The notes under the pieces are model-generated. The model searched no databases. It saw only the letters and a program-made list of their open reading frames with translations, and was not told where the DNA came from. Of a DNA stretch of 50,505 bases, positions 2,847 through 47,485 are shown one piece after another (positions within the stretch are counted from its first letter, which is position 1; every line of letters starts with the position of its first letter). Origin of the DNA: Escherichia phage tuinn; the sequence record MN850606.1; one strand, written 5' to 3'. The position numbers and the translations under genes were made by a program.

Positions 2847-2895
2847 GTGCCTTTATAATGTGCAAACCAAGAAACAGCACAAAAGGTTAAAAGTC

Positions 2896-7721: not shown

Positions 7722-7741
7722 TTTAGCAAAAAGTGCTATTT
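7722..7741 (-). promoter_or_regulatory. conserved motif copy, upstream of lipoprotein gene
   Basis: TTTAGCAAAAAGTGCTATTT on + strand; TATAGT on minus strand at 7697..7702. Confidence 0.6.
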
Positions 7742-8000
7742 GTTATTTTTTGTTTTCCGGTGTTATCGAATTTAAGACGGCGTAAATTTAGCGCAAAATT
7801 TAGACAACATAAGATCAATAAACAATCAATAAAATAGATATATACATATAAAATCAATAGTTTATTTATTTATGTATGTATATTTGTTTTTTCTTGTTAT
7901 CTGCGTTTCTTGTGGTTTTGGTTGTTTGTGGTGATTTTTCTTTCTGAGTATCTGTATGTGCCATCATTCATGTGTATGTATATAATCCGGCGTATCTGAG
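7741..8000 (+). repeat. non-coding regulatory region, copy A of a duplicated element
   Basis: Shares TTTTCCGGTGT, TTATTTATTTAT, GT-rich tract and GTATGTATATAATCCGGCG with 28436..28665. Confidence 0.55.
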
Positions 8001-8108
8001 AGAGCATGGGAACAAGAAAAATAACACACATTAATCATTAACTTATGAGTCAAATCTGTTTTCTTGCCATCTGAGAACGTTTAGAAAACAGAAAAAACAA
8101 AACAGCTA

Positions 8109-8136
8109 TTGACTAAATCAACCAAATGGCTACAAT
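8109..8136 (+). promoter_or_regulatory. sigma70-like promoter of recombination operon
   Basis: TTGACT, 16-nt spacer, TACAAT. Confidence 0.55.
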
Positions 8137-8166
8137 GCACGCATAAAGCAACAAGGAGCATTAAAG

Positions 8167-10742: not shown

Positions 10743-11478
10743 AGTCTAACGTGGTTGGTTTGTTTACCAGTGCCGCTACAACCGCTTTTAGCTCGTCAAT
10801 TTCTTTTCTCATCTCATCGTTTTCCGCTTTCAGTTTCTTAACGTGGTGAATCAGTGGAACAGTGAGGCGGTCATACATAACGCCTTCCGCCACCATGCCA
10901 TTACTTGAAGCAATGGCAGGATCTTCTCCTTCTTGCAGCGGTCGCCAGTGAACGTACTCCGGCGCAATTTGTCCAACCTATTCCGCGATTAGCCCGTACC
11001 ATCCCCAATCTTTACGGTCGCTTTCACAAGTTGACCGATACCAAACAGGACGCATTTCAAGCATCAGATCCGCATATTCATCAATAACCGATTCTACGCT
11101 GCTCTTATAACGAGAAGAGGAAGTGGAGCGTAAAACTTGCGACACTCCAGCATTTGGATCAAGCCATAAGTTTGCTGATTGAGCGGTTGTGTTAATATTA
11201 AATAAATAAAATGCATCGTTACCAGTTAGGGGGTAAAAACTCCCACTATACCTTCCGCTATCCAACTCGGATGATAGATCAGTTTGTTTTAGATACGGTT
11301 TCAACTTATTGTCAACATCAGCAGTTGATGCTTTTCCTGCAACATCCTGTTTTAGTGTCGAAACGTCATTTTTCAGCTTCGTTATATCACCAGGAATAGT
11401 AGCAACATCCTGTTTTAGTGTTGAAACGTCATTTTTCAGCTTCGTTATATCACTAGGTATAACAGTGACTGTAGCCAT
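10741..11478 (-). CDS. tail fibre protein with C-terminal intramolecular chaperone (peptidase S74-like) domain, interrupted by in-frame TAG at 10978..10980
   Basis: Called ORF ends ..DWGWYGLIAE*; same frame continues VGQIAPEYV..LKAENDEMRKEIDELKAVVAALV to TAA at 10741, matching the S74 chaperone consensus. Confidence 0.6.
11344..11469 (-). repeat. tandem 63-bp repeat (2 units) inside tail fibre gene
   Basis: Units start 11344 and 11407; encode duplicated peptide I-P-x-DITKLKNDVSTLKQDVA. Confidence 0.7.
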
Positions 11479-11769: not shown

Positions 11770-13745
11770 TAAACAATTTCCCCCAATTGATGATCTGTTA
11801 GTGCCTTGTGCCATATACGGAAGTTTCTAACGTGCCCGAAAAGATGACGTTCTCCAGTAGTTGTTTGTCCGCCAATCCTTATAGTAGCCGTTGATACTAT
11901 ATATCTCCATTCCGTTTTTGTTTCGCTTGATATTCTGGCATTACTTACACAACAAGTATTGTAATCACTCTTTACTCTCATTCCTATGATCATCTTTTTT
12001 AGTTTCGCATTCTCGTTAACCCTTCTGTTTGATTTACCTATATCGCAATAAGGGAATCCATCATTATCGCCCTTGGCAGATCCGAAAGCAAGAATAATTG
12101 CCGCACCAGATTGATGACCTCCAGTATCAAAAACACGAGGCGCAGCATTTGGCGTCATACTCCAGTTTTTATTAGCTTCCACAAGTAATGTAAACGGCAA
12201 ATTGTAAAGGTTGTTTTTTATTGGTAATGTAACCATATCGCTTGCCCGTGTTACTGGAGTCTCTTCTGTAATAATAAAGGATGAAGCGCACGCCCCACCT
12301 TCAACTTGAGGTGTCGCAATATAAATATAATCATCCGCGCCAGTGCCCACTCCTTTTGCTGGGGCATAATGAACCATTCCACCTATCATATTTTCTGTAT
12401 CAAGTGCCTTAATTGTCGCCTCAAAAAAGATCCATTTGCTTGCTTCATCTTTAACAGCCCTTGCAGTAATACGATTTGCAGCGACGCCAGTTTTTTCAAT
12501 TGATAAATCTGTCAGATTTACGTAAGCATCACCCAAAAATGCATAAGCAGATCCATCGTAGTTTTCAAATCGTAATCGGCATCTTAAATTTGGAGTCCCA
12601 CTTTGCGCCCTGCATGATATGGTTACATACTTTTCATTTCCTGTTACATCAAAACCTCTACTGCCGGAAACGGTTACTATGTTAATCGATGAAGTTTGCC
12701 CTACCATTTCTGGTTTTAATGTAAATTTTGCGTACTGGAATCCGAAATTATCCACACCTGATCTATCTAAGATCATATTTGGTGACTTGTTCCATTTTGA
12801 AGGATTGACGCTATTTATAAGAAGGTTTGCTCTTTGCCCCTCAATGAGCAGACCATCCTTTTCAAATCTAGGTTCATCAATAGCAGCATTAGTAAGCACC
12901 CCAGACTTATTAATGTAAGTAGCGGTTGATGCGCGTTTAAACTTAACAATCTTGTCACCTGGCATCGTGATCTCATCGTCACCTATAACAATCTTTTTAT
13001 ATGACGGAGAGAATCCGGTGATCATATCCAGGGAATCATTAAACGGTATCCACACGTCCGGCAACGGTTGCAATAAATCTTTGTAAGGTTCTGCGGCCTG
13101 CTTTGCGTATTCCTCCGCTTGATCTCGCGCACTTTCAGCTCCTGCCTTTGCAGTGTTCGCAGCGTCACGCGCGGATTCAGCACCAGACTTTGCTGCTTCA
13201 GCGCCAGTCTTTGCAGTGTTTGCAGCGTCGCGCGCGGATTCAGCGGCAGCCTTTGCAGTGTCAGCACCTTTCTTGCTATTCTCTGCATTTGTTGCGCTTT
13301 TCTTTGCGTTATTCTCGCTAGTTTTAGCTGCCTTCTGGCTTGCTGCGGCTGCGTCAGCATTTGTCTTTACGTCTTCCTGGATCTTCTGTAGCTTATCCCA
13401 ATCAAAATCCTTGATGATCTCAATAAATCCAGCAAACTCCGATTCCTTCCCCTGGTAATAACGCAACGTTTCCGCTACGTCTTGCGCAAGACCGTCAACA
13501 GTTAACGAGTCATGAAGCAAGATCAGGTAATTTGTCTTCTGTACTACCGCGCCGCCAGTAGTAATTGCGCGAATGCTTGTATCGCTAATCACTTCTGTAA
13601 TCACAGCAGCTTGCAAAGGTTGAGCAAGAAAGAAAATAGTTGCACCTGGGCGAATCAAGGTTAATTGCTCACGCCATTTTGTACCGTAACCAGTTACATA
13701 ACCTTGCGCGTCCATAGACGCTTGGCCTTGTCTGTAAATCGCCAT
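11769..13745 (-). CDS. side tail fibre protein (lambda Stf-like N-terminus, Ala-rich repeats, C-terminal receptor-binding domain)
   Basis: AGGAGG RBS before ATG 13745; Ala/Ser/Lys-rich repeats; C-terminal domain, possibly jellyroll-type. Confidence 0.75.
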   Translation of the reverse strand: MAIYRQGQASMDAQGYVTGYGTKWREQLTLIRPGATIFFLAQPLQAAVITEVISDTSIRAITTGGAVVQKTNYLILLHDSLTVDGLAQDVAETLRYYQGKESEFAGFIEIIKDFDWDKLQKIQEDVKTNADAAAASQKAAKTSENNAKKSATNAENSKKGADTAKAAAESARDAANTAKTGAEAAKSGAESARDAANTAKAGAESARDQAEEYAKQAAEPYKDLLQPLPDVWIPFNDSLDMITGFSPSYKKIVIGDDEITMPGDKIVKFKRASTATYINKSGVLTNAAIDEPRFEKDGLLIEGQRANLLINSVNPSKWNKSPNMILDRSGVDNFGFQYAKFTLKPEMVGQTSSINIVTVSGSRGFDVTGNEKYVTISCRAQSGTPNLRCRLRFENYDGSAYAFLGDAYVNLTDLSIEKTGVAANRITARAVKDEASKWIFFEATIKALDTENMIGGMVHYAPAKGVGTGADDYIYIATPQVEGGACASSFIITEETPVTRASDMVTLPIKNNLYNLPFTLLVEANKNWSMTPNAAPRVFDTGGHQSGAAIILAFGSAKGDNDGFPYCDIGKSNRRVNENAKLKKMIIGMRVKSDYNTCCVSNARISSETKTEWRYIVSTATIRIGGQTTTGERHLFGHVRNFRIWHKALTDHQLGEIV

Positions 13746-13760
13746 TTGTAAAATCCTCCT

Positions 13761-13779
13761 AAATAGCACTTTTTGCTAA
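13761..13779 (+). promoter_or_regulatory. conserved motif copy (fused to RBS of tail fibre gene on opposite strand)
   Basis: AAATAGCACTTTTTGCTAA. Confidence 0.6.
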
Positions 13780-13809
13780 TGACAATGCAGATAATAGCAT
13801 TTTCAAGTG

Positions 13810-13851: not shown

Positions 13852-14781
13852 TTATAGCAGTGATTCAGGCTTGTAGAGTTTTCTTTCTACGCCCTGTTTA
13901 AAATTATCGTTAACAGGCATCATTATGTCAAGCCCTCTTTCCTCTGCCGCGATTATCACATCACGATCATCTTTCCGGCAGACTACGCGCATTCTTCTTT
14001 CTCCTTTATATCTATGCGCAACCATTTCAAGATTTGAAGGAGTAAAACAGGCCCACACCTCTTGACCAGTTGATAAATGAACATGCTGAGAATCAACCCA
14101 ATCAAGGCACAAATAGATCGTCTTATCTGTACTACCTGTTTTAACAACAGATCCGCGCGTGTAGTCGCGAGCTAAAAACCAATCCTTTCCATCCTCATCA
14201 ATGAAAAGCACGTTACACATTTCATCATCCAGCCCGTCATCATGCACCAGGTGACAAGGTAGCGCGTGAATGTATCGACCATCCTTGACGCCGCAATCAT
14301 AATGACAATCTTCCGGCGGATATATCCCCTCATAAACGCTTAAAGGTGTGCGATCGAATTTTAATGTTTTTTCCATCACTTTTTCGCAACATTCATGACT
14401 TGCCTGTTTCCCGAACGAGTAACCAGAAGAACGCGAAGCGCGTTTGTTTGCTCTGATCCTGTAATCTTGTGGCACTTTTCCGAGGAAGCGGCCCAAAATG
14501 TTGATGGCCTCGCTGTAAGGTTCGCCAGTTAATTTCATTAACCAACCGATCCCCGTGTCGTTGCCGCACACGTTGCAGATCGCGCCTCCGTCGCCCTCTT
14601 CATTTAGCTTATCAGTCCATCTAAAACGATCCTTACCGCCGCAGTGTGGGCAAGGTTGATGCTTTTTGTTGAAAACATCGCTATGCAGCCCGCAAATGCT
14701 TTGTAGTGCTTCACGCCATAACCCCTTCATATATGGCAAAACATCTTCTTTCTGATAGGTCATAAAGTTTTCAGTATTCAT
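13852..14781 (-). CDS. DNA primase with zinc-ribbon
   Basis: CPHCGG..CNVCG zinc-binding motif; start 14781 with GAGG RBS. Confidence 0.65.
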   Translation of the reverse strand: MNTENFMTYQKEDVLPYMKGLWREALQSICGLHSDVFNKKHQPCPHCGGKDRFRWTDKLNEEGDGGAICNVCGNDTGIGWLMKLTGEPYSEAINILGRFLGKVPQDYRIRANKRASRSSGYSFGKQASHECCEKVMEKTLKFDRTPLSVYEGIYPPEDCHYDCGVKDGRYIHALPCHLVHDDGLDDEMCNVLFIDEDGKDWFLARDYTRGSVVKTGSTDKTIYLCLDWVDSQHVHLSTGQEVWACFTPSNLEMVAHRYKGERRMRVVCRKDDRDVIIAAEERGLDIMMPVNDNFKQGVERKLYKPESLL

Positions 14782-14793
14782 GGCAAACCTCAA

Positions 14794-14829
14794 TAAAAAA
14801 GCCCAGCAAATATTATCATTTCGCTGGGC
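14794..14829 (-). terminator. rho-independent terminator after HTH gene
   Basis: GCCCAGC..GCTGGGC hairpin with U-run on minus strand. Confidence 0.55.
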
Positions 14830-14836
14830 CTTATCA

Positions 14837-15313
14837 TTAGCTATTCGTGCTGTTATCACCTTTGTAGAATCTTCCGCCTGGTTCGTAGTCTGAATTTTTG
14901 ACTACGCGCAACATTTCGTATTTGTCGCAACGGGTAGTAAGAGGCTTGCCGTTAGAATCAAACCGCAGATCTGGACGACAAAACGAGGCGCGGTATCCTT
15001 TGCATCCATTATATTTGTAGTCGTTATGCACCTTTTGTGCTCCAGCGGCTGAAATCATACCACGCTTTCGCCATTGGTTAACGACTTGCTGAGATACGCG
15101 CAGACGTCGAGCCATAGCAGGAACACCGCCGTAATACTCGATCAGAATGTCAAGGCGAGATTTCAGGCTTGCTTTTACCTCATCTCGCAGGATAAGAAAT
15201 CCGGTTCGGTGTTTTCGTGGTTTTTTGTCTTTACCTCGTCGCGTTCCGTTGTTACCGTTAATAGTGCGCTTGTCGATCTCACCCGTAGATACTGCAATTC
15301 GTGCATCTTTCAT
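14837..15313 (-). CDS. helix-turn-helix DNA-binding protein, candidate transcription regulator
   Basis: HTH-like ARRLRVSQQVVNQWRKRG; basic N-terminus; GAGGTG RBS. Confidence 0.5.
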   Translation of the reverse strand: MKDARIAVSTGEIDKRTINGNNGTRRGKDKKPRKHRTGFLILRDEVKASLKSRLDILIEYYGGVPAMARRLRVSQQVVNQWRKRGMISAAGAQKVHNDYKYNGCKGYRASFCRPDLRFDSNGKPLTTRCDKYEMLRVVKNSDYEPGGRFYKGDNSTNS

Positions 15314-15324
15314 CTAGTCACCTC

Positions 15325-15344
15325 ATAGCATTTTTTGTTAAAAC
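15325..15344 (+). promoter_or_regulatory. conserved motif copy upstream of helicase gene
   Basis: ATAGCATTTTTTGTTAAAAC; TATTAT at 15363..15368. Confidence 0.6.
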
Positions 15345-15400
15345 AGTTTATTGTAATGAGTCTATTATATACTCCAAATGGCATTTTTTAAAGGTTTAAG

Positions 15401-17398
15401 ATGATTCCAAATATCGAAAAACAAATATCAGCATTAGGCGAGGCAGTAATAAAAAGCATCCAAGAGCGATTCACGGTTGGCAATATAGTGCCTTATCCTT
15501 ATCAGTGCGTTGCGTATGCAGAGATCGCAAAGCGCATGAAAAACTATGAGCATCCTTTCTTTGTTAAGGCTTCTGTATCGGCTGGCAAAACATTGATGTT
15601 TGCGATGGTTGCGGCGCAATGCCGCAAAATGGGATTGAAAATGATGGTCCTTGCTCGCCAGGCTGAAATTGTTGATCAGGATTCGGAGGAGATCAGCAAT
15701 CTTGGCGTGCCAAACTCAATCTATTGCGCCGGACTGAAAACAAAAAGCGCATACTTTCCGATCGTAGTCGGTTCTGAGGGCACTGTAGTAAACGGATTGT
15801 TTAAGTCGTTAGGTGATTATGTTCCGCACGTTATCGGTATTGATGAATGTCACCAGGTGGATTGGGAGGATCTCGCGGACGCGATAGAAAATAATGAATC
15901 TTACCAGCAGATGACCACTAAGAAGGATTTGCCAGTACTGATTGGAGAAGAACAGCAATTTGATTCCAATGGCGATCCAATGTTCGGAACAGGGCGCACA
16001 CAGTACACCGTAATAATCATGGAAATGATGCGCAGGTGTCGCGAGGCATACGGGCACGAATTGCGAATATTCGGCATGACTGGATCTGAGTTTCGCGGCG
16101 TGGTTCCAATACTGGTTGAAGATAAGAACAAAAAGGGATTCTGGCGTGAGCAAGTAACTAACATAGACACAAACTACTTAATCAAATTCGGTTCGGTAGT
16201 GCCAACAAATTTCGGCGACGTCGGCGACCTGGGTTATGACCTTTCAGAGTTCGAGGCCAGTAGCGAGGACGGCGTTTCAGACTTTGACGCTAAAACATTG
16301 CGCAAGATGGAAGAAAAGATCCATCAAGACGCAACAATGACACAGAAAATCATGGCTAAAGTCCATGAGATATGCAAAGACAGGAACGGAGTTTTAGTTA
16401 CATGCGCAGGGGAAAGGCACTGCAAGGAGGCCGCCGCCGCACTGCCGCCAGGCGTTGAATACAGGATCATAACTGGCAAGACTGGAGATAATCAGCGTAA
16501 AGAGTGGCTGAGGGAGGCATACGAGGGAAAAGTAAAATACATCTTCCAGGTACAGGCGCTTACCACTGGCGTTAACGTTCCGTTTTTGGATACTTCGGTA
16601 ATACTGAGAAAGATAGGATCTCTAACATTGCTCATCCAGCTTTTGGGGCGCGGTATGCGACTGCTTAAGCAATGGCACATTGAGCAGGGATTCAAGAAAA
16701 AAGATCATCTTGTATTGGATTTTGCAGGTACTATGGATGAGTTAGGTGATTTGTATTTCGATCCAATCCTTGAGCAAGCGCAACTCCAAAAGAGATTTAC
16801 AAACGGGAAAGAGCCTAAGACTTGTCCGATATGTGGAACGCTAAACAGCTTTTACGCTCGCCGATGTATGCACGTAGACGATAACGGGAAACGATGCGAG
16901 CATTTTTGGACTTACAGAATTTGCGAGGACCAGGTAGATCCGAGAACAAAAAAGATAATCAAGCGCGGTTGCGGAACAAAAAACGACGTAGTGGCGAGAG
17001 TTTGCCGTTGTTGCGATATTTCTCTTGTCGATCCTAACGAGAAGTTAAGCGGTAAGCACTACACCAAAAACGATTGGTGCAACGTTAAATATTTCCGCGT
17101 TGATATGACGAAAAACCAGAAAGGAATTGTTTTTTGCTATGAGCTTGAGGCCAACGGCGACACGTTCAAGGCATACGAAAGATTTTTCCCTGAGTCAGAA
17201 AGCAACATTTGCCGGACGATATGGAGAAAAATAGCATTGCAGCACATACCGGATCGCAAGATTGCTGGTATGGTGGCGAGCTATAGAAATGCGCGTAAAA
17301 TAATGTCATACGCTCATCACATCATGCCGCCTGTACGCGTAACGCATCGCAAAAACGGCAAAGGTGAGGATAACATTGCAAAACGGGAGTTTGTTTAA
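15401..17398 (+). CDS. superfamily-2 DNA helicase with C-terminal zinc fingers
   Basis: Walker A SAGKT, Walker B IDECHQ, several CxxC pairs. Confidence 0.75.
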   Translation: MIPNIEKQISALGEAVIKSIQERFTVGNIVPYPYQCVAYAEIAKRMKNYEHPFFVKASVSAGKTLMFAMVAAQCRKMGLKMMVLARQAEIVDQDSEEISNLGVPNSIYCAGLKTKSAYFPIVVGSEGTVVNGLFKSLGDYVPHVIGIDECHQVDWEDLADAIENNESYQQMTTKKDLPVLIGEEQQFDSNGDPMFGTGRTQYTVIIMEMMRRCREAYGHELRIFGMTGSEFRGVVPILVEDKNKKGFWREQVTNIDTNYLIKFGSVVPTNFGDVGDLGYDLSEFEASSEDGVSDFDAKTLRKMEEKIHQDATMTQKIMAKVHEICKDRNGVLVTCAGERHCKEAAAALPPGVEYRIITGKTGDNQRKEWLREAYEGKVKYIFQVQALTTGVNVPFLDTSVILRKIGSLTLLIQLLGRGMRLLKQWHIEQGFKKKDHLVLDFAGTMDELGDLYFDPILEQAQLQKRFTNGKEPKTCPICGTLNSFYARRCMHVDDNGKRCEHFWTYRICEDQVDPRTKKIIKRGCGTKNDVVARVCRCCDISLVDPNEKLSGKHYTKNDWCNVKYFRVDMTKNQKGIVFCYELEANGDTFKAYERFFPESESNICRTIWRKIALQHIPDRKIAGMVASYRNARKIMSYAHHIMPPVRVTHRKNGKGEDNIAKREFV

Positions 17399-17833: not shown

Positions 17834-17896
17834 TGGCGCGATGGATTGCGCCATAATTCAATAACACGAGATAGCTTTTAATAGCGGAGAAATGAA

Positions 17897-18903: not shown

Positions 18904-18953
18904 GCCCGGCATTTTGTCGGGCATAATTATTTCATCGAAACGAACGTGAGGAA

Positions 18954-19139: not shown

Positions 19140-19371
19140 GCAAGGTAGAGAGGCGGTATGGAATCACGCTAAAGAATGCGGAATAGCCGACGATATAAAG
19201 AAGATCGCGCAATACTTTGATATTGCAGATGTGAGCATAATTAGCGGAGATAAGATGACTTTCCTCAAGGAAAGGCCGCGAAAAATGGTAAGAGTTCCAG
19301 CAGTTCCAACAAAAATTGATTTCAAAGAGGCAATGGCTAAAATCCGAGAGCCTCGCAAATATTATAAATGA
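19129..19371 (+). CDS. hypothetical protein
   Basis: ORF with GGAGG upstream of ATG 19129. Confidence 0.35.
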   Translation: MKVEQGREAVWNHAKECGIADDIKKIAQYFDIADVSIISGDKMTFLKERPRKMVRVPAVPTKIDFKEAMAKIREPRKYYK

Positions 19372-19465
19372 GGATAGTTATCATGTGGCGCTTGTTTGTT
19401 CTACCGTTACCCGTTATCATCGCTGTTACAGTTATGTACCATATAGTGATGAGATAGGTAGCAGA

Positions 19466-20581
19466 ATGAAAAATGTAAAAATTACAGATGAGCAATTCAA
19501 GATCGAACGGGCGGCGGGTAAGACATATAAACAGATCGCTCAAGAGTACGGAATGAATGTGAGAAGCGTCGAGCGTCGCGCGGCGCGACTTGCAAAGCAA
19601 GGCCAAGTATCCACAATTGGAGCGCCTGGTTTTGGCGTTCATGGTGAGTCAGTAATGACTGACAAAGAAGGCAACATAATCCTAAAGTGGACTAAAACCA
19701 GCAAGGATAAAGAGCAATTAGAAGCATTAATGCGCGCAGCAATGGAGGCATTTAGCGAGGAAGTGCCGCGATTAGATCCGGTTCCATTACAGGAGCGCGA
19801 CTATAACGAAACGCTTTCCTTGTATCCGATCTTTGACATGCACTTAGGCGCTATGGCCCATAAGCACGAATGCGGCGAAAATTGGGATACTGCCACGGCA
19901 GAGCGCGTTATGAATAACTTTATCGACTATGCTTTAATGTGCGCACCGGATAGCGAAAAGGCTGTCATCCTGATTGGTGGCGATATGCTGCATAGCGACG
20001 GCCTGGAGGCGGTTACACCTGCAAGCGGTCACGTACTGGATCAAGATAGTCGATATGCAAAATTGGTTTACGTTGCCATCCGTGCAATGCGACGCGCAAT
20101 CAATAAAATGTTGTTAAAGCATAAACATGTTGAAGTCCAGATCGTAGAGGGCAATCATGACCAATCAGGAATGATTTGGCTGCGCGCAGCAATGGCGGCA
20201 GCATATGAAAACGAGCCGCGCGTTTACGTTGATGTTTCACCTCGCGTTGTGCACCACACGCAATACGGAAAAACTTTCCTTGCGTACCATCACGGGCACA
20301 CAGTGCGTAAACCGGAGACTTTGCTAATGATGTGCGCGTCAGATTGGCGGGAGGACTTCGGAAACTCAAAAACGATGTATGCGCACGTAGGGCACTGGCA
20401 TCACCAGACCGTAACGGAAACGTCGCTTGGCATCGTTGAGGTGCATAGCACCCTGGCGGCAAAAGACGCATACGCCGCGCGAGGTGGCTGGAGATCTCGA
20501 CGCCGTGCGGCGGTTATTATTTACGACAAAGAGCATGGAGAGGTGGGGCGATTTGTTCACTATCCAGAAATGATGAATTGA
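19466..20581 (+). CDS. calcineurin-like metallophosphoesterase
   Basis: Motifs FDMH, GDMLHSDG, GNHD, HHGH, GHWHH; first ATG in frame is 19466. Confidence 0.65.
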   Translation: MKNVKITDEQFKIERAAGKTYKQIAQEYGMNVRSVERRAARLAKQGQVSTIGAPGFGVHGESVMTDKEGNIILKWTKTSKDKEQLEALMRAAMEAFSEEVPRLDPVPLQERDYNETLSLYPIFDMHLGAMAHKHECGENWDTATAERVMNNFIDYALMCAPDSEKAVILIGGDMLHSDGLEAVTPASGHVLDQDSRYAKLVYVAIRAMRRAINKMLLKHKHVEVQIVEGNHDQSGMIWLRAAMAAAYENEPRVYVDVSPRVVHHTQYGKTFLAYHHGHTVRKPETLLMMCASDWREDFGNSKTMYAHVGHWHHQTVTETSLGIVEVHSTLAAKDAYAARGGWRSRRRAAVIIYDKEHGEVGRFVHYPEMMN

Positions 20582-22064: not shown

Positions 22065-22126
22065 AATTTTTCCTTTTTGGTTGGTTCGTTTCGATGAAAC
22101 AAATATACCCGACACAAGGTCGGGAG

Positions 22127-24235: not shown

Positions 24236-24288
24236 TCGTTAGCTTCTCCTTTGTGGGCCGTAAATTTTAACGGCCCAATACTACCCCG

Positions 24289-24908: not shown

Positions 24909-24962
24909 GATTAGATCTCCTTTGTTTGTTCGATGTGATTATGCCAGGTTTTTACACCTGGC

Positions 24963-26414: not shown

Positions 26415-26627
26415 TCATTTCTTATTTTTCATCTTAAATTTATGGCCTGGAACACCAGCACCAATATATCCATCGTTGTATTCCATTAAATAAAGGTGAA
26501 GACCATTATCTGAAATTACATGAGGATCTTCTTTGAGATTTCCCATTAGCGGGTATTCTTTTCCGCGCGTAAATCTCCAAGTTGAGTTATAAGTTTCTAC
26601 GCATTTAAGTTTTAATTGCTTTGCCAT
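26415..26627 (-). CDS. hypothetical protein
   Basis: 70-aa ORF coupled to upstream gene. Confidence 0.4.
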   Translation of the reverse strand: MAKQLKLKCVETYNSTWRFTRGKEYPLMGNLKEDPHVISDNGLHLYLMEYNDGYIGAGVPGHKFKMKNKK

Positions 26628-26824
26628 TAGATGATCTCCATGTATGTTTCAAAGCCATTTAACTTGAACAGGCCGTTTTCACATTTGCGAACGTTCCAAG
26701 TTAGCCCTGAGTGGTACGCCTCCATATCATCAAGGTCAATGGTGATTTCAGCACCTTTCTTAAACAAACCTTTTTCGTGAGACTTGTCGCGCTTAACAAC
26801 TTTAACATCAACCTGATTTTCCAT
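26627..26824 (-). CDS. hypothetical protein
   Basis: 65-aa ORF downstream of motif and TATAGT. Confidence 0.4.
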   Translation of the reverse strand: MENQVDVKVVKRDKSHEKGLFKKGAEITIDLDDMEAYHSGLTWNVRKCENGLFKLNGFETYMEII

Positions 26825-26878
26825 CTTTAAATCCTCGTTTGTTGTCGATGCGCTTACTATACCAATCAGCAGCGCATA

Positions 26879-26901
26879 TTTTTTAACAAAAAGTGCTATT
26901 T
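26879..26901 (-). promoter_or_regulatory. conserved motif copy
   Basis: TTTTTTAACAAAAAGTGCTATTT; TATAGT on minus strand at 26856..26861. Confidence 0.6.
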
Positions 26902-28185: not shown

Positions 28186-28206
28186 TTTTAACAAAAAGTG
28201 CTATTT
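28186..28206 (-). promoter_or_regulatory. conserved motif copy, candidate promoter of minus-strand early block
   Basis: TTTTAACAAAAAGTGCTATTT; TACATT and CATCGAAACGAAC box follow on minus strand. Confidence 0.6.
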
Positions 28207-28435
28207 GACGGTTATCGCCAGGATTGCGATCGAAATAATCAAAAGTAATCATTCGTAATCAAATCACGTCAAAATGATGATTGCCTTTGCAAATTTGATG
28301 AGAAAAGTAATCACGTTTAATCATTGGTTGCAGGGGAGATAGTGAAACCTTCCCCTCTTGCCTCACTTTTCCGCCTGGCTGTCAGTGGTTGTTGTCTTTT
28401 GTTCACCCCTGTTACCGATTTCAGGCGGCGTGTTT

Positions 28436-28665
28436 CCGCGCGGTTTTCCGGTGTAGCGAAAACGAAAAAAACAAAAAAATCCCTCTATAATACATTGAAA
28501 ATAAAGATTATTTATTTATATATATCTATAATGTTTTCTTTTTGTTCTCACTGTTACAGTGCTTTTTGTTGGTTATGGTGTGGTTGTGTGTGGGTATATA
28601 TGGATAGTTGCGCGCGCGGCGGATTGCATATGTATATATACTTTTTCCGGCGGATTGCGTTAACA
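28436..28665 (+). repeat. non-coding regulatory region, copy B of duplicated element
   Basis: Shared segments with 7741..8000; A-tracts, two TATAAT boxes, GCGCGCGCG and ATATGTATATATA tracts, CGGCGGATTGC twice. Confidence 0.55.
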
Positions 28666-28759
28666 GCGTGAACATAAAAATAACAGCAGCGAAATCAATA
28701 ACTTGCGCATGATTTTGTAGTTTTTCGATATTGGTAACGTTTTGAATACAACAAAAACA

Positions 28760-28787
28760 TTGACACGCACCAAATAGCTTTTATAAT
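28760..28787 (+). promoter_or_regulatory. near-consensus sigma70 promoter of plus-strand early block
   Basis: TTGACA, 16-nt spacer, TATAAT. Confidence 0.65.
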
Positions 28788-28818
28788 GCGCCAACAGTCA
28801 ACAACTGGAGGAAAGGAA

Positions 28819-30785: not shown

Positions 30786-30838
30786 TCAAATGTGGGGCCA
30801 GGTATAATGGCCTCACTTTCAACGAAGGAGATAAAACG

Positions 30839-32271: not shown

Positions 32272-32288
32272 CACGAATTGCAAAAAAC
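32266..32288 (+). promoter_or_regulatory. conserved motif copy (variant)
   Basis: AAATAGCACGAATTGCAAAAAAC; TATAGT at 32307..32312. Confidence 0.55.
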
Positions 32289-32343
32289 AGATCATCGGGC
32301 TTGCTGTATAGTAAGCCCATCAACAACAAACGAGGATTAAATC

Positions 32344-34921: not shown

Positions 34922-34977
34922 TTCCGCAAGGGCATTTGGTAAAGTGCCCTTATTGAAGCGAAACAGAGGAAAGCGCA

Positions 34978-37521: not shown

Positions 37522-39089
37522 TGATCATATGGGAAGATTTGACGGCGGCGCAAAAGCGAGCCATTAAAGAAATCAGTGAGCATTCATTCGAAAAGATGAT
37601 CAGAATCTGGTTTCAGTTATTGCAGGGGCAAAAATTCCAGAGCAACTGGCATTTTAGCTTATTGTGCAGTGAGGTAGAGAAGATCATCAATGGAGAGTCG
37701 CAGAATGTGATTTTCAACATTACGCCAGGTAGCGGTAAGACTGAGATTTTCTCGATCCACATGTCACCCTACGCGTCATTGAAAAGTCGGAAGGTGAGAA
37801 ACCTTAACCTTTCGTTTAGTGATGGACTTGTCCAGCAAAACAGCAACAGGATAAAGGAGATTATCGGTTCTCCTGAGTGGCAAGAGCTATGGCCAGGAAA
37901 ACTGGCAAAGGCGAGCGCAAAAGATCTCATAGTTACGGATGGCGGCAAGGTTAAATTGCAAGTTAACTCACGTTCTATTGGCGGACAGGTAACAGGTTTG
38001 CGTGGCGGCTATATGGACGATGGTTTTACTGGTATGCTGGTTCTGGACGATCCAGACAAGCCGGATGATATGCTTTCTAAGGTCAAGCGTGAGGCTATCC
38101 ACATGCGGTTAAAAAACACAGTGCGATCGCGCCGAATGAAAGACACTACGCCGATTGTTATGGTGCAACAGCGACTACACGTTAATGATTCCACCTGGTT
38201 TATGCTTAATGGCGGGATGGGTGGTATTGAGTTTAAAGTTGTGAGTATTCCGGCGCTGGTTACGAAAGAATACCGCGAAACGCTTCCTGATTGGTTGAAG
38301 CCTGAATTTGATCGTGATGTGTTGTCAAGTAAGCCAGTGATGATAGATGGCGTTGCTCATTATTCATTTTGGCCTGCGAAGGAAAGCGCGGAGGAATTGC
38401 TTGCATTGCGCAATGCAGATCCTTATACGTTCGCCAGTCAGTACCAACAGCAACCCATCGCGCTTGGCGGCAACGTGTTTAAAACAGAGTGGTTCCAGTA
38501 TTACGGCAGCGGAGAAAAATGCGCACTTCCTAAACCGGATCGCTTTGAATACACATTTATTACTGGTGATACCGCGCAGAAGGCCGGAGAGCTTAACGAC
38601 TATTCAGTTTTTTGTTATTGGGGGATGTATAAGAATCGCGTTTACTTCATTGATGGCATTCGCGGAAAGTGGGAAGCGCCGGATCTTGAATTAAATTTTA
38701 TTGCCTTCGTTAATCAGTGCTGGAAGCGCAATAAGGAGTGTGGCAGCTTGCGACGTATCCACATTGAGGATAAGGCCAGCGGCACGGGTTTGATTCAGGG
38801 GGCCAAAAAGAAGATCCCGATTGATATAAATCCCGTTCAGCGAAGCAATGACAAGGTAACGCGAGCAATGGACGCCGCGCCAGTAATGAGGGCCGGACGT
38901 GTGGCACTGCCAGAAAGTCATCCCATGTTACCTGAGATACTGGCAGAGGTTGCAGCGTTCACTTTTGACGATTCTCATCCCCATGATGATATTGTCGATA
39001 ATATAGTTGATGCTGTTAACGTCGAAATGAACTTGGCTGATGATCCGGTAGCAAGGATGAAAAAGCTGGCTGGTCTACGCAATAAATAG
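37521..39089 (+). CDS. terminase large subunit
   Basis: ATPase motifs (TPGSGKT, LVLDDPD) and C-terminal nuclease-like region; synteny with portal. Confidence 0.75.
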   Translation: MIIWEDLTAAQKRAIKEISEHSFEKMIRIWFQLLQGQKFQSNWHFSLLCSEVEKIINGESQNVIFNITPGSGKTEIFSIHMSPYASLKSRKVRNLNLSFSDGLVQQNSNRIKEIIGSPEWQELWPGKLAKASAKDLIVTDGGKVKLQVNSRSIGGQVTGLRGGYMDDGFTGMLVLDDPDKPDDMLSKVKREAIHMRLKNTVRSRRMKDTTPIVMVQQRLHVNDSTWFMLNGGMGGIEFKVVSIPALVTKEYRETLPDWLKPEFDRDVLSSKPVMIDGVAHYSFWPAKESAEELLALRNADPYTFASQYQQQPIALGGNVFKTEWFQYYGSGEKCALPKPDRFEYTFITGDTAQKAGELNDYSVFCYWGMYKNRVYFIDGIRGKWEAPDLELNFIAFVNQCWKRNKECGSLRRIHIEDKASGTGLIQGAKKKIPIDINPVQRSNDKVTRAMDAAPVMRAGRVALPESHPMLPEILAEVAAFTFDDSHPHDDIVDNIVDAVNVEMNLADDPVARMKKLAGLRNK

Positions 39090-39106
39090 CACTAATTGCT
39101 AAAAAG
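39084..39106 (+). promoter_or_regulatory. conserved motif copy (variant) between terminase and portal
   Basis: AAATAGCACTAATTGCTAAAAAG then TATAAT (39110..39115). Confidence 0.55.
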
Positions 39107-43685: not shown

Positions 43686-43711
43686 CTGATAGCATAAAAA
43701 AACATTGCACG

Positions 43712-43730
43712 TTTAACAAAAAGTGCTATC
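43712..43730 (-). promoter_or_regulatory. conserved motif copy, inverted relative to late operon
   Basis: TTTAACAAAAAGTGCTATC on +. Confidence 0.6.
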
Positions 43731-47426: not shown

Positions 47427-47466
47427 CATTCCTGTAAAATCAATCTATCAAATAAATTAATTCCAC

Positions 47467-47485
47467 TTTTAACAAAAAGTGCTAT
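47467..47485 (-). promoter_or_regulatory. conserved motif copy fused to RBS of tail chaperone gene (inverted)
   Basis: TTTTAACAAAAAGTGCTAT followed by AAGGAG and ATG 47500. Confidence 0.6.

What the first reader, a model, noticed from the sequence alone, without database searches (positions are those of the whole stretch)
14837..15313. HTH protein with motif-fused RBS and private terminator: candidate regulator of the motif promoters
A 158-aa HTH protein sits alone between the primase and helicase operons, has the inverted motif at its own RBS, and is followed by a dedicated terminator (14794..14829). That is the arrangement expected for an autoregulated transcription factor, making it the first candidate for the protein that reads the genome-wide motif.
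Basis: inference. Interest (0 to 1): 0.45.

Follow-up and report, generated by a model that had tools for sequence, protein, structure and literature searches.

The report
Cro-like gene flanked by host-type marbox promoters
The small DNA-binding protein gene is real and sits in its own promoter-terminator unit, but the repeated motif next to it looks exactly like the binding site of the host's MarA/SoxS/Rob stress activators, so the host, not this protein, is the likelier reader of the motif.

Summary
The window is a T1-like coliphage (Drexlerviridae, Warwickvirus). All the reported features are present: the 158-aa ORF (14837-15313, minus strand), a motif copy abutting its Shine-Dalgarno, and a strong intrinsic terminator. 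All are conserved in the relatives examined. The protein has a Cro-type HTH core, an invariant disordered basic N-terminal arm and a small C-terminal module. GenBank already annotates it as "putative transcriptional regulator" (TLS gp57 orthologue).

The motif is the published but unexplained 21-nt repeat of T1-like phages. I find that it matches the enterobacterial marbox consensus (GCAnnWWnTGnnAAA) exactly. It lies in class II geometry: forward orientation, centre about -42, 18 nt to a -10, no -35. That is the geometry of E. coli micF.

The copy at the RBS belongs to the divergent helicase promoter. A second copy overlaps the regulator's stop codon and, with a -10 inside the terminator loop, forms the primase promoter.

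The motif is invariant across the family, while the protein's recognition helix varies freely. The motif's conserved asymmetry also does not fit a homodimer. Host MarA/SoxS/Rob/RamA are therefore the better candidate readers. Nothing has been tested experimentally.

The parts
14837..15313 (-). CDS of the 158-aa Cro-like HTH protein (TLS gp57 orthologue; PHROG 2856). aa 1-30 form an invariant but disordered basic arm, the HTH is helices 64-71 and 75-84, and aa 105-150 form a conserved C-terminal module.
15319..15324 (-). Shine-Dalgarno GAGGTG of the regulator, with no gap between it and the marbox
15325..15344 (+). Marbox-type motif ATAGCATTTTTTGTTAAAAC. It is forward-oriented toward the helicase gene and lies in the 5' leader of the regulator transcript on the other strand.
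   Evidence: (25.9 bits)
15363..15369 (.). Shared -10 block: TATTAT (15363-15368, +) for the helicase promoter and TATAAT (15369->15364, -) for the regulator promoter. The two promoters should be mutually exclusive.
15387..15392 (-). -35-like TTTAAA of the regulator's sigma70-type promoter, with a 17-nt spacer
   Evidence: TLS P57 equivalent
15401..17398 (+). Helicase gene driven by the marbox promoter
14834..14853 (-). Second marbox copy ACAGCACGAATAGCTAATGA, overlapping the regulator's last codons and stop codon (S T N S *). It is the upstream element of the primase promoter.
   Evidence: 21.0 bits; TLS DR10
14794..14829 (-). Intrinsic terminator of the regulator transcript (stem GCCCAGC/GCTGGGC, then U6)
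   Evidence: -23.5 kcal/mol, z -3.5; TLS T57
14810..14817 (-). -10-like GATAAT/TAATAT in the terminator loop, 16-18 nt after the second marbox. The predicted start lies in the 3' arm, so primase transcripts would lack the terminator hairpin.
13852..14781 (-). DNA primase gene; its ATG at 14781 lies 13 nt after the U-run

Best explanation
The ORF encodes the conserved Cro-like HTH protein of T1-like phages. It forms a one-gene early unit. A sigma70-type promoter (P_reg) gives a roughly 44-nt leader, and an intrinsic terminator ends the message.

The 'genome-wide motif' is a class II marbox, the 20-bp asymmetric site bound by the host's monomeric two-HTH activators MarA, SoxS, Rob and (in Klebsiella and Salmonella) RamA.

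The copy at the RBS belongs to the divergent helicase promoter. A second copy over the stop codon belongs to the primase promoter, whose -10 lies in the terminator loop.

Most likely sequence of events:
1. Host RNA polymerase alone fires P_reg.
2. Host MarA-family protein plus RNA polymerase occupy the marbox promoters.
3. The -10 hexamers of P_hel and P_reg are the same 7 bp read on opposite strands, and the marbox lies at about +14 to +33 of the P_reg transcript. Occupation of P_hel therefore shuts P_reg by promoter competition, possibly with a roadblock. This limits regulator synthesis whoever binds the marbox.
4. The terminator keeps P_reg transcripts out of primase, while P_pri transcripts start inside its 3' arm and escape termination.

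The protein itself is probably an early regulator, but not the primary reader of the motif. If it acts on these promoters, it does so through its invariant N-terminal arm and C-terminal module or through protein contacts, not through base-specific readout by helix 3.

Shown here: the sequence features, their conservation, the consensus match and the geometry. Inferred: all binding, all transcription start sites and the timing.
For: Motif identity:
- The independent published MarA consensus GCAnnWWnTGnnAAA matches 17 sites exactly in the window, against 1.57 expected. All 17 are motif copies.
- A weight matrix built only from phage copies picks out the marRAB marbox (ATGCCACGTTTTGCTAAATC, 17.1 bits; next best -1.6) as the single top hit in its region. 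It does the same for the micF marbox (ACAGCACTGAATGTCAAAAC, 16.2 bits, p about 2e-6).
- It also finds the top gene-strand hits at zwf and fumC (p < 1e-4) and nothing in a control region.
- A 15-mer bound in vivo in Salmonella (ypeC, GCATTTTTTGCTAAA) is contained in TLS repeat DR18 (gaatagcattttttgctaaaa). It differs by one base from the window's 15328-15342 copy (GCATTTTTTGTTAAA).

Geometry:
- 373 of 406 unique motif contexts across the family carry a -10-like hexamer 17-19 nt after the 20-mer, mode 18.
- micF has the same 18-nt gap, and its annotated start lies 7 nt after TAGAAT, putting the site centre near -42.
- Published class II sites are forward-oriented, overlap the -35, and sit at about -41 for micF.
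- The phage promoters match TTGACA at only 2-3 of 6 positions. Class II promoters in Salmonella average 1.9 and never exceed 3.

Arrangement:
- 80 of 80 loci have TATAAT or a one- or two-mismatch variant 20-22 nt upstream of the inverted motif, followed by SD and ATG.
- 67 of 80 have a motif over the stop codon, followed by a hairpin with a -10 at a gap of about 18.
- The TLS authors independently predicted P57, T57, DR10 and DR11 at the same places.

Against the protein as reader:
- Helix 3 is variable while the motif is invariant, even in homologues at 40-45% identity.
- The motif carries conserved asymmetric positions.
- No AraC-family protein is encoded. The only other HTH hit, sub-threshold, sits on a 421-aa Metallophos nuclease-like ORF.

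Hosts: MarA, SoxS and Rob homologues occur in many enteric bacteria and share one site. Rob has the highest affinity.
Against: - No binding, start-site or expression data exist for any T1-like phage in the library I could search.
- A Keio screen with TLS-like phage LL5 recovered only receptor/LPS genes, secB and ppiB, not rob, marA or soxS. The three paralogues may be redundant, but Rob is the only abundant one in unstressed cells.
- Rob is largely aggregated and inactive under standard growth conditions, yet these phages grow very well in plain broth.
- The phage motif is more constrained than the marbox consensus: A3 is 95% and T11 98% conserved.
- Four strong copies have no proper -10 and are not explained by class II activation: 13763, 39086, 43710 and 47466. 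Two of them abut the SD of late genes.
- The motif-plus-TATAAT pattern is confined to this phage family in IMG/VR. Motif and regulator therefore always co-occur, and co-occurrence cannot separate the hypotheses.
Confidence: 0.55

Rival explanations
1. The Cro-like protein binds the motif, for instance as a dimer on the pseudo-dyad TAGCA-N5-TG(C/T)TA. It activates the promoters from about -42, as lambda CI does at PRM or C-proteins do, and represses its own promoter from the leader copy. The resemblance to the marbox would be secondary, for example a back-up use of host factors.
For: - It is the only small dedicated HTH protein in the genome.
- It is driven by one of only about three sigma70-type intergenic promoters and is bracketed by two motif copies in all lineages.
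- TAGCA / TA(G/A)CA half-sites lie 10 bp apart.
- Single rob, marA or soxS knock-outs did not score in the LL5 screen.
- The N-terminal arm is invariant and could read an invariant site.
Against: - The 15-of-15 match to the marbox consensus plus identical class II geometry is very unlikely if the site evolved for an unrelated protein.
- Most of the dyad is already implicit in the marbox consensus (YnGCA...TGYYA).
- Positions 1, 7, 11, 17 and 18 are >92% conserved and asymmetric.
- Helix 3 is unconserved, while the motif is identical in relatives at 40-45% identity.
- Genome compaction and the needs of the neighbouring promoters are enough to explain the flanking copies.
Confidence: 0.2
2. The protein is a regulator or cofactor that works with, or against, the host activator rather than reading the DNA itself. 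It might free or activate Rob, remodel RNA polymerase so that promoters lacking a -35 are favoured (which would also shut host and early sigma70 promoters, including its own), or compete at marboxes late in infection to switch them off.
For: - The most conserved parts are not the recognition helix. They are the disordered basic arm (D14...R33) and the C-terminal GYRASFCRPDLRFDSNGKP module. That pattern is what one expects if the partner is an invariant host protein.
- Early sigma70-driven expression fits a licensing factor.
- Rob is inactive unless released, yet the phage grows in plain medium.
- How T1-like phages shut off the host is an acknowledged open question.
Against: This is pure inference. 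There is no detectable similarity to AsiA, MotA or any known polymerase- or Rob-binding protein. The C-terminal module has no structural match.
Confidence: 0.12
3. The protein is not a transcription factor for these promoters at all. It is a replication-module DNA-binding protein, such as an origin or primosome organiser, that happens to sit between the helicase and primase genes.
For: - The synteny helicase <- -> HTH -> primase holds in every relative, including the most distant.
- The 'transcriptional regulator' label in databases rests on HTH similarity alone.
- A variable recognition helix would fit lineage-specific origin sequences.
Against: - No iterons or lineage-specific repeats were seen near the gene.
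- A private sigma70 promoter and terminator suggest dosage control typical of regulators.
- The closest folds are Cro proteins.
Confidence: 0.08
4. The motif needs no specific protein. It would act as an UP-element or DNA-bending element for RNA polymerase, or at the RNA level: forward and inverted copies are complementary, and inverted copies lie next to SD sequences.
For: - The TLS authors raised UP-element and 'stoperator' ideas.
- Inverted copies abut the SD of three genes.
- The core has A/T-rich flanks.
Against: - The invariant GCAC and TG blocks are unlike A/T-only UP elements.
- The fixed 18-nt distance to a -10 and the absence of a -35 call for an activator.
- The exact marbox match would remain unexplained.
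Confidence: 0.05

Closest known systems
Class II MarA/SoxS/Rob/RamA-dependent promoters of Enterobacteriaceae (micF type)
   Same: - Same 20-bp asymmetric site (GCAC ... TG ... AAA).
- Same forward orientation and the same 18-nt gap to the -10, with the centre near -42.
- The -35 is lacking in both.
- The phage-derived matrix retrieves the mar and micF marboxes.
   Different: - About 15-20 near-consensus copies are packed into a 50-kb virulent phage genome, where they drive early, replication and accessory genes.
- Many have a hairpin in the spacer or the -10 in a hairpin loop.
- One shares its -10 with a divergent sigma70 promoter.
- Extra conserved positions (A3, T11).
- Binding by host factors is untested.
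TLS gp57 and the '21-nt direct repeats' of T1-like phages (PMC11447400)
   Same: Orthologous gene and the same repeat (aaATAGCACnnnTTGnTAAAA). P57, T57, DR10 and DR11 correspond to the promoter, terminator and two flanking copies found here.
   Different: That paper leaves the repeat's function as an explicit open question (stoperator, enhancer or UP element). It does not mention marboxes, the fixed -10 distance or the relation to gp57.
P22-type Cro proteins (Xfaso-1 Cro 3bd1, N15 Cro, P22 Cro) / YdaS family
   Different: - 158 aa rather than about 60-70.
- An invariant disordered basic N-terminal arm and a conserved C-terminal module with no structural match.
- Pfam scores fall below the gathering cut-offs.
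- A lytic phage with no repressor partner.
- The operator is unknown.
Switches with overlapping divergent promoters controlled by one site (lambda PRM/PR with CI at -42; phi29 p4 at A2b/A2c-A3; LysR-type divergent autoregulation)
   Same: One bound site would activate one promoter while silencing the opposing one. The regulator gene is one of the two transcription units.
   Different: Here the -10 hexamers themselves coincide on opposite strands, and the bound factor is predicted to come from the host. The comparison is an analogy recalled from general knowledge and was not tested.

Membership tests
PHROG 2856 / Drexlerviridae 'transcriptional regulator' (TLS gp57 family) | Full-length sequence match to the family profile | tested here: met
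   E 1.6e-72 over aa 4-144. tblastn finds 849 phage records, 810 of them with >=80% coverage.
PHROG 2856 / Drexlerviridae 'transcriptional regulator' (TLS gp57 family) | Conserved position between the divergent helicase gene and the co-directional primase gene | tested here: met
Cro/YdaS-type HTH (Pfam PF14549 / PF15943) | Score above the Pfam gathering threshold | tested here: not met
   28.7 bits against a 30 cut-off (YdaS_toxin) and 19.9 against 30.2 (P22_Cro). Several homologues do carry precomputed PF15943/PF14549 hits.
Cro/YdaS-type HTH (Pfam PF14549 / PF15943) | All-alpha Cro fold with a helix-turn-helix | tested here: met
Cro/YdaS-type HTH (Pfam PF14549 / PF15943) | Dimer binding to a (pseudo)palindromic operator at its own promoter | not testable with these tools
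   No lineage-specific palindrome was found in the P_reg region. Oligomeric state is unknown.
MarA/SoxS/Rob (AraC/XylS) activators - the protein as a member | Two HTH motifs in one AraC-type domain | tested here: not met
   The regulator has no AraC/HTH_18 hit. Neither do 60 other ORFs.
Class II marbox promoter - the motif as a member | Match to the marbox consensus | tested here: met
   17 exact matches to GCANNWWNTGNNAAA against 1.57 expected. The phage matrix finds the mar and micF marboxes.
Class II marbox promoter - the motif as a member | Forward orientation, overlapping the -35 position, centred about -36 to -55 | tested here: met
   The gap to the -10 is 17-19 nt in 373 of 406 contexts and identical to micF. 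Start sites are predicted, not mapped.
Class II marbox promoter - the motif as a member | No recognisable -35 hexamer | tested here: met
   2-3 of 6 matches at 14 of 15 promoters, compared with <=3 and a mean of 1.9 in Salmonella.
Class II marbox promoter - the motif as a member | [quoted passage not shown] | not testable with these tools
   Needs EMSA, in vitro transcription or a triple mutant. The only indirect data are negative for single knock-outs.
Autoregulated transcription factor | The factor's own binding site lies within its own promoter or leader | tested here: inconclusive
   A motif copy is in the leader in 80 of 80 loci. It is also required there by the helicase promoter, and the protein's binding site is unknown.

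The most novel reading that the evidence does not exclude
An entire family of virulent enterobacterial phages has handed recognition of nearly all its non-consensus promoters to the host's MarA/SoxS/Rob/RamA stress and antibiotic-resistance activators. The Cro-like early protein would be the phage-encoded partner that licenses this. It might release or activate Rob, or dock on the marbox complex through its invariant arm. The result would be an early-to-middle switch coupled to the host's stress state.
Probability: 0.15. Interest if true: 0.85.

Novelty: new variant of a known kind. Interest (0 to 1): 0.6.

Why it matters
The function of the 21-nt repeats of T1-like phages was listed in 2024 as an open question. 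Only three sigma70-type promoters had been found for a 50-kb genome.

Reading the repeats as class II marboxes gives a concrete, cheaply testable answer. It predicts that the early, replication and accessory transcription of a very common family of E. coli, Klebsiella and Salmonella phages is tied to the regulators behind multidrug tolerance (mar/sox/rob/ram).

That would matter in several ways:
- for combining phages with antibiotics
- for phage behaviour in bile-rich gut conditions
- for phage engineering
- for how the annotated 'transcriptional regulator' is interpreted: its database label would then say little about what it actually does

If the prediction fails, the Cro-like protein becomes the prime candidate again. 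The same experiments decide between the two.

Tried and rejected
- **Covariation between helix 3 and the motif.** I compared 27 lineages plus four distant homologues. The motif never changes, so there is no covariation to exploit. The result instead counts against helix-3 readout.
- **Dimer/dyad reading (TAGCA-N5-TGCTA).** This was attractive at first. However, most of the symmetry is implicit in the marbox consensus, and five highly conserved positions are asymmetric.
- **A lineage-specific operator in the P_reg region.** None was found. The spacer types track the conserved leader of the helicase mRNA instead.
- **The shared 9-mer CCAAATRGC.** It occurs in the spacers of the three sigma70-like promoters, but it is weak (5 hits against 1.3 expected) and absent from the TLS equivalents.
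- **Remote homologues outside the family.** A profile search of 1.8 billion representatives found, beyond generic HTH hits, only more T1-like phages. P0105 and P0107 had no relatives in IMG/VR and no closer relative in GenBank phages.
- **A second phage DNA-binding candidate.** The only one is a sub-threshold HTH on a 421-aa Metallophos nuclease-like ORF at 19316-20581.
- **Motif-plus-TATAAT pattern in IMG/VR.** All 53 hits came from contigs of T1-like size or fragments of them, so co-occurrence is uninformative.
- **Fold searches.** They gave no lead for the C-terminal module, and the afdb50 library was unavailable.
- **Literature.** I found no transcriptome, start-site map or regulator study for any Drexlerviridae member, and no paper linking marboxes to phages. 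One search was wasted because 'marbox' matched 'marboxil'.
- **RNA-level idea.** Pairing between forward and inverted copies was considered and set aside as unsupported.

Full report
**What the window is.** The region is 99% identical to E. coli phages ExeQuayColi, ityhuna, tunus and SLUR29. It is collinear with BASEL phage FritzSarasin, classified as Drexlerviridae, Tempevirinae, Warwickvirus. In those records the ORF is already annotated as 'putative transcriptional regulator'.

**The observation.**
- ORF 14837..15313 (-) encodes 158 aa.
- It matches PHROG 2856 at E 1.6e-72. Pfam YdaS_toxin and P22_Cro hit aa 55-90 just below their curated cut-offs.
- The terminator at 14829->14794 folds at -23.5 kcal/mol (z -3.5) and is followed by U6.
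- The motif copy at 15325-15344 (+) touches the SD GAGGTG of the ORF.

**The protein.**
- tblastn finds it in 849 phage records. A search of 5.8 billion proteins gives only 99 clusters, all on contigs of about 50 kb. It is a core gene restricted to T1-like phages.
- In the alignment, the invariant residues lie in three places: a basic N-terminal stretch (D14 R16 N19 G20 N21 N22 R26 D29 R33), helix 44-61, and a C-terminal GYRASFCRPDLRFDSNGKP block. The HTH itself is much less conserved.
- AlphaFold2 gives mean pLDDT 85. aa 1-30 are disordered, the HTH comprises helices 64-71 and 75-84, and a small C-terminal module packs on the core.

**The motif.**
- ATAGCACTTTTTGTTAAAAC occurs 14 times at <=3 mismatches, against 0.01 expected. 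A matrix built from other phages finds 20 strong copies in the window.
- It is the '21-nt direct repeat' aaATAGCACnnnTTGnTAAAA reported for TLS, T1, Rtp and Rogue1. The authors list its function as an open question.
- Across 406 unique contexts from 80 related loci plus the window, 373 carry a -10-like hexamer 17-19 nt downstream, mode 18. The corresponding -35 position matches TTGACA at only 2-3 of 6 bases.
- These are therefore activator-type promoters, with the site centred near -42.

**What the motif resembles.**
- The conserved blocks are A-T-A-G-C-A-C, a variable triplet, then T-T-G-n-T-A-A-A.
- This equals the marbox as defined from MarA ChIP-seq, gcannwwntgnnaaa. That independent consensus matches 17 sites exactly in the window, against 1.57 expected, and all 17 are motif copies.
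- I built a matrix only from phage copies and scanned E. coli K-12 regulatory regions:
  - In the marRAB region the single top hit is ATGCCACGTTTTGCTAAATC (17.1 bits; next best -1.6).
  - In the micF region it is ACAGCACTGAATGTCAAAAC (16.2 bits). That site is followed by 18 nt, then TAGAAT, with the annotated micF start 7 nt later. This is exactly the phage geometry.
  - zwf and fumC give their best hits on the gene strand (p < 1e-4). A control region gives none.
- Published descriptions agree:
  - Class II marboxes are forward-oriented and overlap the -35.
  - RamA sits at about -41 on micF, reading CACT-7X-AAA.
  - Class II promoters never match the -35 at more than three positions.
  - A site bound in vivo in Salmonella (ypeC, GCATTTTTTGCTAAA) is contained in TLS repeat DR18. 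It is one base from the window's 15328-15342 copy.
- Allowing for roughly 200 known E. coli factors, both orientations and a few registers, I estimate from the information content of the consensus that a chance match of this quality with the right geometry has probability of order 1e-3 or less. This figure is not a tool output.

**The local architecture.**
- In 80 of 80 loci the regulator strand reads: -10 (TATAAT in 66, TATCAT in 10, other one- or two-mismatch variants in 4), 20-22 nt, inverted motif, SD, then ATG 10-13 nt after the motif in 76.
- In the window, the -10 of the regulator promoter (TATAAT, 15369->15364) and that of the helicase promoter (TATTAT, 15363-15368) occupy the same bases on opposite strands. 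RNA polymerase should be able to hold only one of them at a time.
- The regulator promoter is one of about three sigma70-type intergenic promoters in the genome. TLS P57 is its counterpart.
- At the 3' end, 67 of 80 loci have a second motif copy overlapping the stop codon. This explains the oddly conserved C-termini STNS* and DSTDC*. It is followed by the terminator hairpin, with a -10-like hexamer about 18 nt after the motif, in the loop or 3' arm.
- In the window that copy is ACAGCACGAATAGCTAATGA (14853->14834; 21 bits), with GATAAT/TAATAT at 14817->14810. Primase transcripts would start inside the 3' arm and so escape the terminator that stops regulator transcripts.
- The 'private terminator' is therefore real, but it is also half of the primase promoter. 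TLS DR10 and T57 are the same pair.

**Who reads the motif.**

Evidence that favours the phage protein:
- It is the only small dedicated HTH protein. The sole other HTH hit is sub-threshold and sits on a 421-aa Metallophos ORF.
- It is expressed from a host-type promoter and is flanked by motif copies.
- A Keio screen with a TLS-like phage did not recover rob, marA or soxS.
- Rob is largely aggregated under standard conditions.

Evidence against it:
- The marbox match itself.
- The conserved asymmetry of the motif: positions 1, 7, 11, 17 and 18.
- Invariance of the motif in every lineage, including homologues at 40-45% identity whose helix 3 is entirely different (KRHRVARW, NGLRMVLW, NPLEYREM). 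Those loci still have the same motif, the same class II spacing and the same copy at the regulator's SD.
- Both flanking copies are needed by the neighbouring promoters in an 88-bp intergenic region, so adjacency carries little weight.

My estimates are about 0.55 that host MarA-family proteins are the primary readers and this protein is not. The remainder is spread over a cofactor or antagonist role, a replication role, and protein-independent functions.

**Limits.**
- No start sites, binding data or transcriptomes exist for this phage family in the searchable literature.
- Motif and regulator are both confined to the family, so co-occurrence cannot discriminate.
- Four strong copies lack a proper -10 (13763, 39086, 43710, 47466), and two of them abut the SD of late genes. 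They remain unexplained.

Noticed in passing
window 17834-17858, 18904-18925, 22100-22125(-), 24250-24287(-), 24935-24961(-), 26845-26879(-), 30786-30815, 32288-32320, 34922-34955: Many motif promoters carry a hairpin between the marbox and the -10, or have the -10 in the hairpin loop. They look like compact terminator-promoter cassettes of the kind that flanks the regulator. Several lack a good U-run, so their role is unclear.
   Followed up: partly
window 13763-13782(+), 47466-47485(-), 43710-43729(-): Motif copies inverted relative to the downstream gene. Two abut the SD of late genes (lateral tail fibre and tape-measure chaperone). One lies about 45 nt upstream of the major capsid gene. 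They have only weak or no -10 at the class II distance, and class II activation does not explain them.
   Followed up: partly
window 39086-39105(+): The best-scoring motif copy in the window (32.5 bits) is followed by a terminator-like hairpin and then the portal gene, with no -10 at the standard gap.
   Followed up: no
window 2874-2893(+): A marbox-like copy (17 bits) lies at the start of the J-like tail tip gene. It is the equivalent of TLS repeat DR8.
   Followed up: no
downstream of most motif promoters, e.g. window 18930-18945, 22085-22100(-), 24915-24930(-): Predicted leaders share a CATCGAAACGAAC / CATCRACAACAAAC element just before the SD. It is also visible in the family-wide consensus. 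It may be a start-site context or a translation enhancer.
   Followed up: no
window 28760-28790(+) and 8109-8140(+); non-coding 7740-8166 and 28205-28785: A perfect sigma70 consensus promoter (TTGACA-16-TATAAT) and a second good one each sit at the end of a long AT-rich non-coding stretch. The two stretches share TTATTTATTTAT(G/A)TATAT repeats. These may be early promoters, or origin or pac-related regions.
   Followed up: no
window 8122-8130, 15374-15382, 28770-28778: CCAAATRGC occurs in the spacer of all three sigma70-like promoters (5 hits in the window against 1.3 expected). It is not conserved in the TLS promoters, so it is probably not an operator.
   Followed up: partly
window 14837-14853(-) and family alignment A1: The conserved C-terminal residues of the regulator (STNS*, and DSTDC* in the TLS group) are imposed by the overlapping DNA motif, not by protein function.
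   Followed up: yes
window 26627-26824(-): A 65-aa ORF matches Pfam PF25180 'phage antiviral trigger protein Gp54' at E 1.7e-38.
   Followed up: no
window 19316-20581(+): An ORF with a sub-threshold N-terminal HTH (aa 66-97) and a weak (E 0.012, sub-threshold) Metallophos phosphoesterase match. One of the 60 scanned ORFs, presumably this one, matches PHROG 704 'DNA repair exonuclease'. It is the only other HTH signal in the genome.
   Followed up: partly
window 11339-11461 and 13134-13259: 63-bp tandem duplications (95% and 84% identical) lie inside the tail-fibre region genes.
   Followed up: no
BFVD hits; P0112 and P0117: Shorter proteins of 77-101 aa carry the HTH plus the FCRPDL module but lack the basic N-terminal arm. 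One comes from Escherichia phage SRT8, which is not in the T1-like hit sets. The C-terminal module may therefore be a wider family hallmark.
   Followed up: no
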